Origin: Candidatus Heimdallarchaeum endolithica
GTDB lineage: Archaea; Asgardarchaeota; Heimdallarchaeia; Heimdallarchaeales; Heimdallarchaeaceae
Assembly (NCBI GenBank): GCA_021513715.1
Contig: CP084167.1
Coordinates: forward strand, 1,216,001-1,280,000
Direction: 5' to 3'
Length of the DNA: 64,000 nt
The notes beneath the pieces were generated by a model. It had not been told where the DNA came from. It saw only the letters and a list, made by a program, of their open reading frames with translations, and did no database searches. A program made the translations under genes and the position numbers. Numbering within the stretch: position 1 is the first letter of the stretch; the number at the start of each line of letters is the position of its first letter. Below, in pieces: positions 19,341 to 22,403 of this stretch.

Positions 19341-20739
19341 AGACAGAGAACGAGCGCAATTTAGAAGATTCTTTAAAAAGAGATTTGAAGAAGGAGAACA
19401 TATTCTAGAACTATATACAAGAGATTTCGCTAAAGTCCCGAATTTAGTAAAAAAACTAGTTATTGCTAAACCAGAAGCAGTAATATTAGTAGAAACAGTG
19501 GAAGACATAAAAAAAGCATTTGAAATAGCAAATAAAACAAAAATACCTCTTATTCCTCGCGCAGGAGCTACTTCAGGACATGGAGGAACACTAGTTTACA
19601 AAAAAGGAATAATAGTCGATCTAACAAAACTTAACAGAATAATAGATATAGAGCTGATGGATCAATCAGTAACAGTAGAACCTGCAGTAACTTTTCACGA
19701 CCTGGAAAAAGCCCTAACAATGCAAAGTTTAGCTCTTTGCTCCTATCCATCAAGTATTTACTCAGGAACAATAGGAGGGTGGATAGCACAAGGAGGAGAA
19801 GGTATAGGGAGTTTGAAATATGGAAGCATTATTGACCTATTATTAGGATTAGAAGTTGTCTTGCCAGATGGAAGTGTAAAATACTATACTGAGAAAGAAG
19901 ATTTTGAAATGTTTGTAGGAGCACAAGGAACAACAGGAATAATAACCAAGGTTAAACTAAAATTTAGGTTTGACATACCCTTAAAACATATTGCTTTTAC
20001 ATTTGATAATTTCTCAGACATGTTAAAAGGGTTATCAAGATGTAGAGAAGTAGAACCATTTTCAGTTTGGTTCCTAAACAAACATAAAGTAGATTATTTA
20101 AATAAAACACTAGGATATATTTTACCTTCACGTCATCTAGTCATTGTTTCAAAAGAGATAAGCTATGATGAAGAAGAAAAAGAGTTCAGAGAAAAAATAT
20201 ACAAGATAGTACGAGAAGAAAAAGGACAACTAATTTCAGATTATTATATTCAAGGAATATGGAAAGCAAGATTCAAAATCTTTTCAATATTGAAAGAAAT
20301 GGAAAACTATATTCTAGGGGAAGTAAGCATACCATTAGATTACGGGGCAGAGTATATAGAGAGTCTTCCAAAGAAAATAGATAAAAAAATATTGATAGAA
20401 GGAATAATGGTTTCTTTTTCTACAGTATCAATAATCTTGAATTTGGTGCTAAAAACAGACCAATCAAAAATTAAACAATATAAAAAATTCTTGCAAGTCT
20501 ATAAATGGATATTAAAAGCAATAAAAATAGGAGGTTTTCCCTCAGCAACAGGGTTATGGTTCGGAGGATATTACCACACTATTTATGGAAAAGAAAGAGA
20601 AGAGAAATTGTTGAAATTTAAGAAAGAAGTAGATAAAAACAACATTTGCAACCCAGATAAAGTATGGTCCCCTAAAGTAAAACAATTACCCTTAATTTCT
20701 TTGAAAACAGCGATAAAAATTATAGGTGAATTATTTTGA
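19336..20739 (+). CDS. FAD-binding oxidoreductase (GlcD/D-lactate dehydrogenase family), probable ATT start
   Basis: PRAGATS.HGG, TIGGWIA, LKYG, GAQGTTGIIT, NPDK. The frame is open from 19315 and encodes the conserved LYTRD...PEAV segment upstream of the first canonical start (GTG 19498). Confidence 0.88.
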   Translation: MKDRERAQFRRFFKKRFEEGEHILELYTRDFAKVPNLVKKLVIAKPEAVILVETVEDIKKAFEIANKTKIPLIPRAGATSGHGGTLVYKKGIIVDLTKLNRIIDIELMDQSVTVEPAVTFHDLEKALTMQSLALCSYPSSIYSGTIGGWIAQGGEGIGSLKYGSIIDLLLGLEVVLPDGSVKYYTEKEDFEMFVGAQGTTGIITKVKLKFRFDIPLKHIAFTFDNFSDMLKGLSRCREVEPFSVWFLNKHKVDYLNKTLGYILPSRHLVIVSKEISYDEEEKEFREKIYKIVREEKGQLISDYYIQGIWKARFKIFSILKEMENYILGEVSIPLDYGAEYIESLPKKIDKKILIEGIMVSFSTVSIILNLVLKTDQSKIKQYKKFLQVYKWILKAIKIGGFPSATGLWFGGYYHTIYGKEREEKLLKFKKEVDKNNICNPDKVWSPKVKQLPLISLKTAIKIIGELF

Positions 20740-21549
20740 AAATAGAAGAATACTTTTTTCCTGAAGATTTACTGTATGATATAAGTGAACCAGGACACAT
20801 TTGGATAAGGAAAATAGAAGAAAAAAAAATAGAGATAGGAATAGACGATTATGCAGCTAAACGTGCAGGAGAAATAGAGTTTATTAGAACAATGAAAGTA
20901 GGAAAACAAATTACAAAAGGGGGAACAATAGGAACTTACGAAACAGGAAAATGGATAGGACAAATAAAAAGTCCCGTATCAGGAACATTAGTAGAAAAAA
21001 ATGAACTACTAAAAAATCAACCAGAATTGGTGAATAAAGCGCCCTATAGCGCATGAGATACTTTTTTACGTAATAAACTAAATTTTTAGTTTGTGGAGTT
21101 ATCAGACCAATAACAACCTGAAACACATTTGCAAAAATAAAGAATACATACACGATATTAGGGAGTGTCACAACTTTTCAGCTATCTTTATATATTTAAT
21201 TCTCATTTATCTAATGTCTTGAGCTATATGCTTAAAGACGTAGGTTTCACTCCTACGACACCCGGTCTTCCCTGTGGGAGTTATGAGTGCCCGGGATAAG
21301 GAGATGAACCCCTTAGAGAACTTAATTAAGACTGTGTCTTTCATGTTCTCTTAAGCCAGTCTTCACAACTTTCGCTAAGTTTGTTGATTGGTTGGGGAGA
21401 GTCCTGAAGAAATTAAGTAAAATTTCAACTCATGGATAGTGAGAATAGAAGGAATAAAAATAGAAGAAGAACTAAAAGAAAATGAATTAATAGTAGAAGC
21501 AGGAGAAAAATTGAAAGAACACATATTATTTAGAATCTCAAAAGAATAA
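20736..21549 (+). pseudogene. gcvH: Glycine cleavage H-like lipoyl carrier protein interrupted by a 379-bp insertion
   Basis: HIW, IGIDDYA, lipoyl-Lys motif YETGKW, SPVSG.V.N. Removing 379 bp restores ...NKAPYSAWIVRIEG...ISKE* (144 aa). Confidence 0.85.
21052..21434. mobile_element. Non-autonomous 379-bp insertion element with structured non-coding core, flanked by CATG direct repeats
   Basis: CATG at 21052-21055 and 21431-21434; excision restores gcvH; no transposase ORF; several GC-rich hairpins at 21239-21410. Confidence 0.85.
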
Positions 21550-21581
21550 AGAAGAAAAAGCAAATTCCAGGAAAAGAAAAT

Positions 21582-22403
21582 TTAAAGTAAAATTCCTAAA
21601 AGGAAAAAAAGAATAATTATTAAACCCAGAACTAAACAAACAAAAGCAAAACTGTATTTTTTAGCAACTTTAAGAAGTAATTCAATGGTTAAGAAACCGA
21701 CTATAGCTGTAACCAAAATAGCTAAACTTATCTCCCACCATTTGAAGAGAAGAACAGGTTCGTGAGTGATAAGTGACCAAGTTAAGTTGAGTGTAAAACC
21801 TCCAAGAACAGCAGGGATGCTCATAATAAAACTGCCTTTCAAAGCTTCTTCTTTATCCACTCCTAGAAAAAGTAATCCACCAACAGTGGTACCAGAACGA
21901 CTGATACCAGGAATAATAGTAAAACCCTGCAATAAACCAACAACAAGCATACGTTTCTTACTCAGTTCAGCGATAGGAACACCTTCTTTTTCAACCTTAC
22001 GAGAAAAATAAAGAACAAAAGCGGTAACTAAAAGAGCAATACCAACAATTAAGGTAATATACTCGCCAAAAACAGAACTCTCACCTAAATAAGATAGAAG
22101 AAGATAACAAGGAATACCAGTAATAGCTGTTCCAAAAGTAGTTAGTAAAATAAACCAACGCCATTGAACAACTTCAGGAGAACGATCGCGAAAATCAATA
22201 AAAAAGAAGAGCTCCTTATAGTATTTTAAAACAACAGCAATAAGAGTGCCTAAATGAAGCCACAAAGAAAGAGAAATAGCTTCTTGTGAACCAACATGCA
22301 AAAAAGAAACAAGTAAAGTAACAGATTGTCCTTCAGAACTGACTGGTAACCACTCCAATAAACCTTGTAGGACAGCAAAAAGAAGTAAAAACCAGAAGAG
22401 CAT
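21582..22403 (-). CDS. uppP: Undecaprenyl-diphosphate phosphatase (BacA/UppP)
   Basis: QGLLEWLPVSSEGQ, HLGT, PGISRSGTT, SFIMSIPA. Confidence 0.92.
   Translation of the reverse strand: MLFWFLLLFAVLQGLLEWLPVSSEGQSVTLLVSFLHVGSQEAISLSLWLHLGTLIAVVLKYYKELFFFIDFRDRSPEVVQWRWFILLTTFGTAITGIPCYLLLSYLGESSVFGEYITLIVGIALLVTAFVLYFSRKVEKEGVPIAELSKKRMLVVGLLQGFTIIPGISRSGTTVGGLLFLGVDKEEALKGSFIMSIPAVLGGFTLNLTWSLITHEPVLLFKWWEISLAILVTAIVGFLTIELLLKVAKKYSFAFVCLVLGLIIILFFLLGILL

What the first reader, a model, noticed from the sequence alone, without database searches (positions are those of the whole stretch)
21052..21434. 379-bp protein-free mobile element with a guide-RNA-like structured core, inserted in gcvH
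Seen: excision of exactly 379 bp at the duplicated CATG restores gcvH. The ends have only weak inverted similarity (9/15). Inside, a TTTATATA box (21187) precedes hairpin CGTAGG/CCTACG (21239-21257) and two similarly built stem-loops, each with an asymmetric internal loop and a TGT triloop (21261-21295 and 21313-21354). One loop contains ATGAGT, complementary to the element junction ACTCAT; the other contains TCATG, the core. Known: IS110-family bridge/seek RNAs use two internal loops that pair with donor and target around a short core; IS200/605 right ends finish in TTCAA, which lies 2 nt from this end, and encode reRNA. Inference: a non-autonomous RNA-guided element mobilised in trans.
Basis: partly seen in the sequence, partly recalled or inferred. 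Interest (0 to 1): 0.75.

Follow-up and report, generated by a model that had tools for sequence, protein, structure and literature searches.

The report
Guide-RNA-only mini transposon in gcvH
A 379-bp protein-less jumping element has split the only gcvH gene of this Heimdall-group Asgard archaeon, and its structured core is the guide-RNA (omega RNA) module of a TnpB transposon that has lost the nuclease gene; this kind of element is known in bacteria, but here the ends are unusual and no enzyme that could move it was found.

Summary
A 379-bp insert (window 21055-21433) splits gcvH; the sister species and metagenome contigs carry the intact, empty site. It is one of about 16 full copies (86-100% identical), inserted in genes in both orientations, so it is a DNA transposon and not an intron.

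The bridge-RNA (IS110) reading fails. The genome has no DEDD recombinase, and near-identical copies sit in unrelated flanks that share only VCAT|R.

A covariance model of the 3' 220 nt finds homologues in other Heimdallarchaeaceae genera. There the RNA directly follows, and overlaps, a 480-510-aa tnpB gene and ends at the transposon right end. 45 of 59 pairs show compensatory changes. The noticed ATGAGT/ACTCAT complementarity matches the pseudoknot known from the ISDra2 omega RNA.

The element shares its CAT target and its TTACGTAA subterminal inverted repeats with a resident TnpB-only IS family (~12 copies). It is therefore an omega-RNA-only derivative with its own TATA box, probably served in trans by TnpB.

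The mobilising enzyme is unknown. The ends are inverted repeats, the only Y1 transposase gene is broken by a copy of this element, and the sister genome has none.

Other notes of this scan described copies of this family before.

The parts
20736..21054 (+). 5' part of gcvH (codons 1-106); the insertion creates a stop, TGA, at 21054-21056
   Evidence: ORF list; Pfam GCV_H 2.5e-24; the intact orthologue in G001
21052..21054 (+). Target motif CAT immediately 5' of the element; candidate transposon-adjacent motif, VCAT with the preceding base
   Evidence: Every copy of this element and of the TnpB-only IS family has CAT here. T at the position before CAT occurs in 1 of 32 sites against a 37% background, P about 7e-6
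21055..21433 (+). The 379-bp non-autonomous element. The boundaries are ambiguous by up to 4 nt because CATG stands on both sides
   Evidence: 16 full copies in the genome; empty site in G001 and in metagenome contigs
21055..21074 (+). Left terminal inverted repeat, with the palindrome TTACGTAA at 21066-21073
   Evidence: 17 of 22 match to the reverse complement of the right end in the family consensus. The same layout is found in the TnpB-only IS family
21187..21194 (+). TATA box (TTTATATA) 27 nt upstream of the first conserved RNA position; probable archaeal promoter of the RNA
   Evidence: A TATA-like box is kept in all diverged full copies while the surrounding 5' sequence drifts. It resembles the tnpB promoter box of related TnpB elements, which is fused directly to the RNA in the mini-elements of G002. 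Transcription itself is inferred
21214..21433 (+). Omega-RNA-like scaffold (220 nt) ending exactly at the right end
   Evidence: Fold z-score -3.1. Covariance model R1 finds homologues after tnpB genes in other genera. 45 of 59 pairs show changes on both sides, and 93% of cells are paired against 39-50% when partners are slid. R1 aligns end-to-end to the 3' ends of the resident TnpB IS at 27, 23 and 15 bits
21283..21288 (+). ATGAGT: 5' strand of the long-range (pseudoknot) helix; at DNA level also a recurrent breakpoint
   Evidence: Pairs with 21428-21433 in the consensus fold. The helix is kept in 27 of 27 homologues, with one double change. The resident IS family has ATGATT/AATCAT instead. 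Breakpoints at this site:
21342..21344 (+). Internal CAT (within TCATG) that behaves as a pseudo-end
   Evidence: Three 5'-truncated copies (genome 1375194, 1184271; G001 L036) start exactly after this CAT, each preceded by a flank CAT
21409..21433 (+). Right terminal inverted repeat: hairpin GAAATT/AATTTC around TTAAGTAA, then AACTCAT
   Evidence: The last six bases form the 3' strand of the pseudoknot helix
21434..21453 (+). Predicted guide segment of a read-through transcript (gcvH sequence just 3' of the element)
   Evidence: Inferred by analogy with TnpB omega RNAs, whose guide is the DNA just outside the right end (PMC10097598, PMC10055086). Not tested
21434..21549 (+). 3' part of gcvH (codons 108-146 and stop)
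   Evidence: Restored reading frame; collinear with G001 gcvH

Best explanation
The insert is a miniature, protein-less derivative of a TnpB-only transposon family of Heimdall-group Asgard archaea.

It keeps four things: the two ends, which are inverted repeats with a TTACGTAA box 11 nt inside; a promoter (TATA box at 21187); the about 220-nt omega-RNA scaffold that in full-length relatives follows the tnpB gene; and the terminal ...CTCAT.

Shown:
- It transposes as DNA. It has many copies, in both orientations, and the empty site exists in the sister species.
- It always lands 3' of VCAT, usually before a purine.
- Its core is a conserved, covarying structured RNA of the TnpB guide-RNA kind.

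Inferred:
- The RNA is transcribed from its own TATA box and runs through the right end into the flank.
- The flank-derived 3' segment then serves as guide for a TnpB made by a resident full-length element. The about 12-copy family with the same ends and target is the best candidate.
- That complex would cut the empty VCAT + flank site after excision, so the element is copied back from a sister chromosome (homing or retention, as shown for bacterial IS605 TnpB).

The right end reads TCAT, whereas T is almost never found before the target CAT. This would keep the occupied site from being cut.

The enzyme that excises and inserts the element is not identified. In this window the result is a broken gcvH, the only copy in the genome.
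For: Mobility
- 16 full copies at 86-100% identity, plus truncated and older copies.
- Insertions lie in ORFs in both orientations.
- The empty site is present in G001 and in metagenome contigs.

Link to TnpB elements
- A 1.88-kb TnpB-only family (about 12 copies) has the same CAT|G flank and the same TTACGTAA box 11 nt from CATG at both ends.
- A tnpB 5' fragment at genome 2492927 carries a left end of the mini-element type.

RNA identity
- Model R1 finds 287-nt homologues in at least three further genera.
- In 11 loci the homologue starts at most about 68 nt before the stop of a 477-511-aa TnpB gene, or just after that stop, and ends at AACTCAT.
- The same genera also hold tnpB-less mini forms in which the left end with the tnpB promoter is fused to the RNA start.
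- Covariation: 45 of 59 pairs have double changes.
- R1 aligns end-to-end to the resident IS 3' ends.

Pseudoknot
- The six bases before the guide pair with a segment about 150 nt upstream.
- ISDra2 omega RNA pairs -5..-3 with -105..-103 in the same way (PMC10097598).
- The pairing changes in a compensatory way between families (ATGAGT/ACTCAT against ATGATT/AATCAT).

Constraint
- Diversity among copies is 0.051-0.057 in the RNA module against 0.093 in the 5' spacer.
- The TATA box is kept in all diverged copies.

Target logic
- The base before CAT is T in 1 of 32 sites (P about 7e-6).
- The base after the insertion point is a purine in 42 of 45 sites.

Precedent
- PATE-like elements that encode omega RNAs used in trans are noted for bacteria (PMC10055086).
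Against: - No transcript data exist, so expression, RNA ends and TnpB binding are inferred.
- The genome has no TnpB close to those linked with the nearest RNA homologues. The resident family is 41-44% identical to them in protein, and its own RNA matches R1 only weakly (15-27 bits). A working partner is therefore not assured.
- The alignment used for covariation was fitted to the model, which favours the structure.
- The ends are inverted repeats rather than the asymmetric hairpin ends of classical IS200/IS605.
- The fourth base of CATR tends to agree on both sides, which hints at a small duplication. The transposition chemistry may therefore differ from the peel-and-paste scheme on which the homing model rests.
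Confidence: 0.72

Rival explanations
1. The element is a guide-RNA relic. It descends from a TnpB element, but its RNA no longer has a matching TnpB in this genus and does nothing. The element persists only because its ends are still recognised by the unknown transposase.
For: The closest RNA homologues belong to TnpBs absent from G000 and G001; the resident TnpBs are only 41-44% identical to those. R1 scores only 15-27 bits on the resident IS RNAs.
Against: The RNA module is less variable than the 5' spacer among copies. The TATA box is retained in every diverged lineage. Stems are kept by wobble or compensatory changes even within the two Heimdallarchaeum genomes. A recent burst of copies at 99.5-99.7% identity all have intact RNA modules.
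Confidence: 0.15
2. The conserved core acts as DNA, not RNA. It would be a long right-end recognition region, possibly folding as single-stranded DNA, for the transposase.
For: Base-pair covariation cannot tell RNA from single-stranded DNA. Internal ATGAGT and CAT sites behave as DNA breakpoints.
Against: A 220-nt multi-helix scaffold with the pseudoknot next to the boundary, placed directly after tnpB and preceded by a promoter in the mini forms, matches omega RNAs. The left end has no counterpart of this structure, although the terminal repeats are symmetric.
Confidence: 0.05
3. It is an IS110-type element whose RNA loops pair with target and donor DNA and guide a DEDD recombinase supplied in trans.
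For: There are two stem-loops with internal loops, one loop is complementary to the element's end, and there is a short CATG core.
Against: No DEDD_Tnp_IS110 match exists in the 3.33-Mb single-contig genome. The loops are invariant while the insertion flanks are unrelated beyond VCAT|R. The TCATG loop is missing in distant homologues. The RNA is homologous to RNAs that follow tnpB genes.
Confidence: 0.02
4. It is a self-splicing or protein-spliced intron (group I/II, IStron-like or archaeal bulge-helix-bulge) that leaves gcvH functional.
For: The insertion is in the sense orientation within a coding gene, and the core is structured.
Against: About half of the genic copies are antisense to the host gene. 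Rfam gives no match in the element to any ribozyme or intron family even at E up to 10. The ends are inverted repeats and the element carries an internal promoter.
Confidence: 0.01

Closest known systems
PATE-like mini-elements of IS200/IS605 that encode omega RNAs (noted for Geobacillus stearothermophilus by Meers et al., PMC10055086; PATEs were first named in haloarchaea)
   Same: No protein gene. It keeps the transposon ends and the guide-RNA module, so it must borrow both the transposase and TnpB in trans. It shares its ends and target motif with TnpB-carrying elements in the same genome.
   Different: The ends here are symmetric inverted repeats with a palindromic box, not asymmetric hairpin ends. 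The flanks read CATR on both sides. No usable Y1 TnpA exists in either closed genome. The host is an Asgard archaeon. The RNA has its own archaeal TATA box.
ISDra2 TnpB omega RNA (reRNA), IS200/IS605 family (PMC10097598, PMC8612924)
   Same: The RNA ends at the transposon right end, so the guide comes from the flank. It is a multi-stem scaffold. The bases just before the guide pair with a distant upstream segment to form a pseudoknot.
   Different: There is no detectable sequence similarity. The scaffold is longer (220 against 116 nt). It is not overlapped by a tnpB gene in this element. The candidate adjacent motif is VCAT instead of TTGAT.
The resident TnpB-only IS family of this genome (about 1.88 kb, about 12 copies; IS1341-type architecture)
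   Same: Same CAT|G flank. Same TTACGTAA box 11 nt from CATG at both ends. Same RNA architecture, with a compensatory pseudoknot pair.
   Different: It carries a 483-527-aa TnpB. Its RNA is only a distant homologue (15-27 bits). Its copies are older (80-91% identical), whereas the mini-element had a recent burst.
IS110-family bridge/seek RNA elements
   Same: A structured non-coding RNA encoded by the element, and a short core shared by the ends and the target.
   Different: There is no DEDD recombinase, no programmable loops and no loop-target covariation. The RNA belongs to the TnpB guide family instead.

Membership tests
TnpB omega RNA (reRNA) | Encoded at the transposon right end, with the scaffold ending at the boundary so that the flank supplies the guide | tested here: met
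   The model match ends at 21433, the last base of the element, in all copies. The same holds in TnpB-linked homologues
TnpB omega RNA (reRNA) | Physically linked to a tnpB gene (downstream of, or overlapping, its 3' end) in at least part of the family | tested here: met
   In 11 loci of other genera the homologous RNA starts at most about 68 nt before the stop of a 477-511-aa TnpB gene, or just after that stop. It is not linked in this element itself
TnpB omega RNA (reRNA) | Conserved secondary structure, with a pseudoknot formed by the bases just 5' of the guide | tested here: met
   45 of 59 pairs show double changes. The ACUCAU/AUGAGU helix is kept in 27 of 27 sequences and changes in a compensatory way between families. 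The three-dimensional fold was not tested
TnpB omega RNA (reRNA) | Is transcribed, bound by TnpB, and directs cleavage next to the adjacent motif | not testable with these tools
   No RNA run holds the stretch; a biochemical test is needed
PATE / MITE derived from IS200/IS605-type elements | No coding capacity, multi-copy, and ends shared with a protein-coding element of the same genome | tested here: met
   Only short chance ORFs lie in the element, 86 aa at most and none confined to it. There are 16 full copies. The ends and target are shared with the TnpB-only family
PATE / MITE derived from IS200/IS605-type elements | Asymmetric subterminal hairpins, with no inverted repeats and no duplication (Y1 peel-and-paste ends) | tested here: not met
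   The ends are inverted repeats (17 of 22) with the box at equal distance from CATG on both sides. A related subfamily has tandem TTTGCGAA motifs without hairpin potential. The fourth base of CATR often agrees on both sides
PATE / MITE derived from IS200/IS605-type elements | A Y1 (HUH) TnpA available in trans | tested here: not met
   The single Y1 gene in G000 (genome 925129-925479) is separated from its start codon by a copy of this element. That gene belongs to an IS with GC-rich hairpin ends. G001, a closed genome with 11 copies, has none. Extrachromosomal sources are not excluded
IS110 bridge-RNA elements | DEDD (RuvC-like) recombinase of the IS110 family | tested here: not met
   PF01548 has no match in the genome
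IS110 bridge-RNA elements | RNA loops complementary to target and donor flanks that covary with them | tested here: not met
   The RNA is invariant in copies with unrelated flanks
IS607 family | Serine transposase with an N-terminal MerR-like DNA-binding domain, usually next to tnpB | tested here: not met
   There are two resolvase-domain genes. Both have the catalytic domain at the N terminus, and neither is linked to these elements
Group I/II intron or IStron | Ribozyme core and sense-only insertion in genes | tested here: not met
   No Rfam match within the element at E up to 10; antisense insertions are common

The most novel reading that the evidence does not exclude
This mini-element and the whole Asgard clade of TnpB-only elements have inverted-repeat ends, a VCAT|R target, CATR on both sides, and recurrent deletions and inversions at internal (C/T)ATG sites. 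They may be moved by a transposition mechanism not yet described for TnpB elements. That could be an unrecognised enzyme or TnpB with its RNA taking part in breakage and joining. Neither closed Heimdallarchaeum genome offers a usable Y1, IS607-type serine, IS110 or Cas1-type transposase, yet the mini-element has multiplied very recently.
Probability: 0.15. Interest if true: 0.85.

Novelty: new variant of a known kind. Interest (0 to 1): 0.5.

Why it matters
The finding gives a clean archaeal example of a guide-RNA-only parasite of the TnpB system. The mobile unit has shed the nuclease and kept only the ends, a promoter and the guide scaffold. This supports the view that transposase, nuclease and guide RNA are separable, tradeable modules.

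It also defines, with covariation support, the omega-RNA family of an Asgard-specific TnpB clade, which is of interest for the ancestry of eukaryotic Fanzor nucleases and for compact genome editors. From natural insertion sites it yields a candidate adjacent motif (VCAT) and a self/non-self distinction (TCAT at the right end).

Finally, it sharpens an open question. These elements have symmetric ends and no visible transposase in two closed genomes, and a burst of copies at 99.5-99.7% identity shows the machinery was active recently. For the organism, the practical effect is inactivation of its only gcvH in the sequenced genotype, while close relatives keep it intact.

Tried and rejected
- **Rfam** at E up to 10 over 20500-22000 gave only chance hits outside the element.
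- **nhmmer** with the core alignment found no similarity to the 3' ends of other TnpB families in the genome. Only the covariance model with filters off linked it to the resident family.
- **Partial copies**: searched around them for a parent transposase and found none.
- **Right-end pattern scans**:
  - The genome-contig scan found only Ca. Heimdallarchaeum aukensis.
  - The metagenome scan gave more close copies, four chance matches and one rearranged copy, but no parent.
- **Transposase hunt**:
  - Y1: one broken copy.
  - IS110: none.
  - Resolvase: two unrelated genes.
  - Cas1: only in CRISPR adaptation modules with Cas2/Cas4-sized neighbours, which were not scanned.
  - Multi-copy ORF families are IS4/IS5-like, IS481-like, a further DDE_Tnp_1 family, a family of unknown kind and a PD-(D/E)XK family. 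The four whose ends were examined have their own, different ends.
  - Neighbourhoods of Thorarchaeota TnpB homologues show no transposase.
- **Aloposons** (PMC8813620) integrate at tRNA genes and were set aside.
- **Expression**: no RNA holder is listed for this stretch, so expression could not be examined.
- **Circle junction**: no right-end-to-left-end junction or tandem copy was found in the genome or in the fetched loci.
- **Other structural ideas**:
  - The proposed crossing helix AAGACTG/CAGTCTT, from another note of this scan, is not kept in distant homologues.
  - TTCAA near the end has no counterpart role; all copies end in CTCAT.

Full report
**What is there**

The window lies at 1216001-1280000 of a single-contig, 3.33-Mb, 30.8% G+C archaeal genome. 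Its congener G001 is Candidatus Heimdallarchaeum aukensis PM71. From size and kinship the genome is probably the second closed Heimdallarchaeum genome of Wu et al. 2022 (PMC8813620), but this is my inference. That paper reports 11 transposase/integrase families. It does not mention TnpB, MITEs or this element.

At 20736 a gcvH gene starts and runs into a stop at 21054-21056. Taking out 379 bp between the two CATG (21052-21055 and 21431-21434) restores a 146-codon GcvH. G001 has exactly this uninterrupted sequence and an intact gene. Contigs from other metagenome runs, one of them about 98.7% identical to the flanks, join 21051 to 21431. The insertion is therefore real and recent. gcvH has no second copy in the genome.

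**It is a multi-copy DNA transposon, not an intron**

- The genome has 16 full copies at 86-100% identity. Five of them are 97.6-99.7% identical to one another.
- There are two older full-length variants and several 5'-truncated or partial copies.
- G001 has 11 copies.
- Reconstructed empty sites show insertions inside long ORFs in both orientations, and several at start codons. This excludes a spliced element.
- Rfam gives nothing within the element.

**Ends and target**

Every copy is preceded by CAT and ends in CTCAT.

- The base before the target CAT is T in 1 of 32 sites, against a 37% background (P about 7e-6).
- The first flank base after the element is G in 26 sites, A in 16, T in 2 and C in 1, out of 45 sites.
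- The target is therefore VCAT|R, while the element's own right end reads TCAT.

In the family consensus the ends are inverted repeats (17 of 22), with the palindrome TTACGTAA 11 nt inside CATG on each side.

The fourth base (R) tends to be the same on both sides, but not always. TATG is never seen on the left. The junction is thus strand-asymmetric, and I cannot decide between three readings: no duplication, a 1-nt duplication or a 4-nt duplication.

**Relatives in the same genome**

A 1.88-kb family encoding only a 483-527-aa TnpB (Pfam Cas12f1-like TNB domain) has about 12 full copies. It has the same CAT|G flank and the same box at the same distance at both ends. One of its subfamilies carries tandem TTTGCGAA motifs at the ends instead.

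Two further TnpB-only families have similar layouts with a TTGTACAA box. One of them also ends in AACTCAT.

A tnpB 5' fragment at genome 2492927 carries a left end of the mini-element type.

**The structured core is an omega RNA**

A covariance model (R1) of the last 220 nt finds about 287-nt homologues in other genera of the family.

- In 11 of these loci the RNA starts at most about 68 nt before the stop codon of a 477-511-aa TnpB gene, or just after that stop.
- In the loci where both boundaries were read, the match ends at AACTCAT and is followed by unrelated DNA.
- Those elements are again TnpB-only, are flanked by CAT|G, and have inverted-repeat ends with tandem TTTTCCCCA motifs.
- The same genera also have tnpB-less mini forms. 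In these the left end, with the tnpB promoter box, is fused directly to the first base of the RNA. This shows how such mini-elements arise by internal deletion.

On the joint alignment:

- 45 of 59 pairs show changes on both sides.
- 93% of cells are paired, against 39-50% when the partners are slid.
- No shuffle reaches the observed values. The caveat is that this alignment was fitted to the model.

With filters off, R1 also aligns end-to-end to the 3' ends of the resident 1.88-kb family (27, 23 and 15 bits).

It is kept in all 27 homologues. In the resident family it is replaced in a compensatory way by ATGATT/AATCAT. It corresponds to the pseudoknot of the ISDra2 omega RNA, where the bases just 5' of the guide pair with a segment about 100 nt upstream (PMC10097598).

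**Promoter and constraint**

TTTATATA (21187-21194) lies 27 nt before the first conserved RNA base. A TATA-like box is kept in all diverged copies, while the 5' spacer drifts. Diversity among copies is 0.051-0.057 in the RNA module against 0.093 in the spacer. Transcription itself could not be examined, because no RNA run is listed.

**How it most likely works**

Shown: it is an omega-RNA-only, non-autonomous relative of TnpB-only elements. It inserts 3' of VCAT.

Inferred: the RNA reads through the right end, and the flank provides the guide. A TnpB supplied in trans would cut the vacated VCAT + flank site, so the element is restored by recombination. This is the model established for bacterial IS605 elements, where PATE-like elements encoding omega RNAs for use in trans were already noted (PMC10055086). 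The TCAT right end against the VCAT target would protect occupied sites.

The weak point is the partner. The TnpBs linked to the nearest RNA homologues are only 41-44% identical to the resident ones.

**What moves it is unknown**

- The only Y1 TnpA gene (genome 925129-925479) belongs to an IS605-type element with GC-rich hairpin ends. The most diverged copy of this very element separates it from its ATG.
- G001 has no Y1 gene at all.
- There is no IS110 recombinase and no IS607-type serine transposase.
- Cas1 occurs only in CRISPR adaptation modules. The Asgard Cas1-TnpB association reported by Altae-Tran et al. (PMC10691335) is therefore not seen here.
- The other multi-copy families whose ends were examined have their own, different ends.

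DNA breakpoints recur at internal (C/T)ATG sites:

- Three truncated copies start after the internal CAT at 21342-21344.
- One partial copy ends, and another starts, at the ATGAGT site.
- One metagenome variant carries an inversion between ATGAGT and ACTCAT.

This fits an enzyme that cuts after (Y)CAT-like sites and occasionally uses pseudo-sites.

**Verdict**

The bridge-RNA interpretation is rejected, and the right-end guide-RNA interpretation is supported. The element is a new variant of a known kind: an omega-RNA-bearing PATE/MITE, here in an Asgard archaeon with inverted-repeat ends. The real open question is its transposase. Other notes of this scan had already described copies of this family, and the CATG-flanked TnpB elements, elsewhere in the genome.

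Noticed in passing
genome 925129-925884 (locus L009 1501-2256, minus strand): The only Y1 (HUH) transposase gene of the genome is cut between its ATG CCA T and the rest of the gene by the most diverged copy of this mini-element. Removing the copy restores M-P-S-G-Y-D-A-N... The outward-reading RNA of that copy would carry a guide matching the transposase gene itself.
   Followed up: partly
window 45144-45327 (genome 1261144-1261327): A 184-bp fragment, 88.6% identical to an internal part of the 1.88-kb TnpB-only IS family, lies elsewhere in this window, with a second short match beside it.
   Followed up: no
genome 396394-396560, 700172-700335, 2845691-2845858, 2939989-2940151: Another TnpB family (445-452 aa, ends with a TTGTACAA box) also has short, roughly 165-bp derivatives. 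These keep only its 3' RNA/right-end part, so guide-RNA-only remnants are not limited to one family.
   Followed up: no
locus L081 1778-1998 (metagenome contig Ga0164318_10030686): A natural variant of the copy orthologous to genome 2922001 has its 3' 150 nt inverted. The breakpoints fall exactly at the internal ATGAGT and the terminal ACTCAT.
   Followed up: partly
genome 2492448-2492927 (minus strand): A 5' fragment (about 480 bp) of a tnpB element has a left end of the mini-element type (CATAAGATAC...), which links the mini-element's left end to a lost TnpB subfamily.
   Followed up: partly
loci L125-L132 (Thorarchaeota contigs): TnpB homologues (561-583 aa) of the same Asgard clade sit about 250 bp from a divergently oriented giant gene (over 1,600 aa, no Pfam family) in two sets of contigs. 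It may simply be the host gene next to the insertion.
   Followed up: no
genome 2102657-2103646, 2241059-2244365, 2398083-2401892: A five-copy PD-(D/E)XK nuclease family; two copies lie beside repeated genes whose products begin with a P-loop (GGxGKT) motif. They may belong to integrated elements.
   Followed up: no
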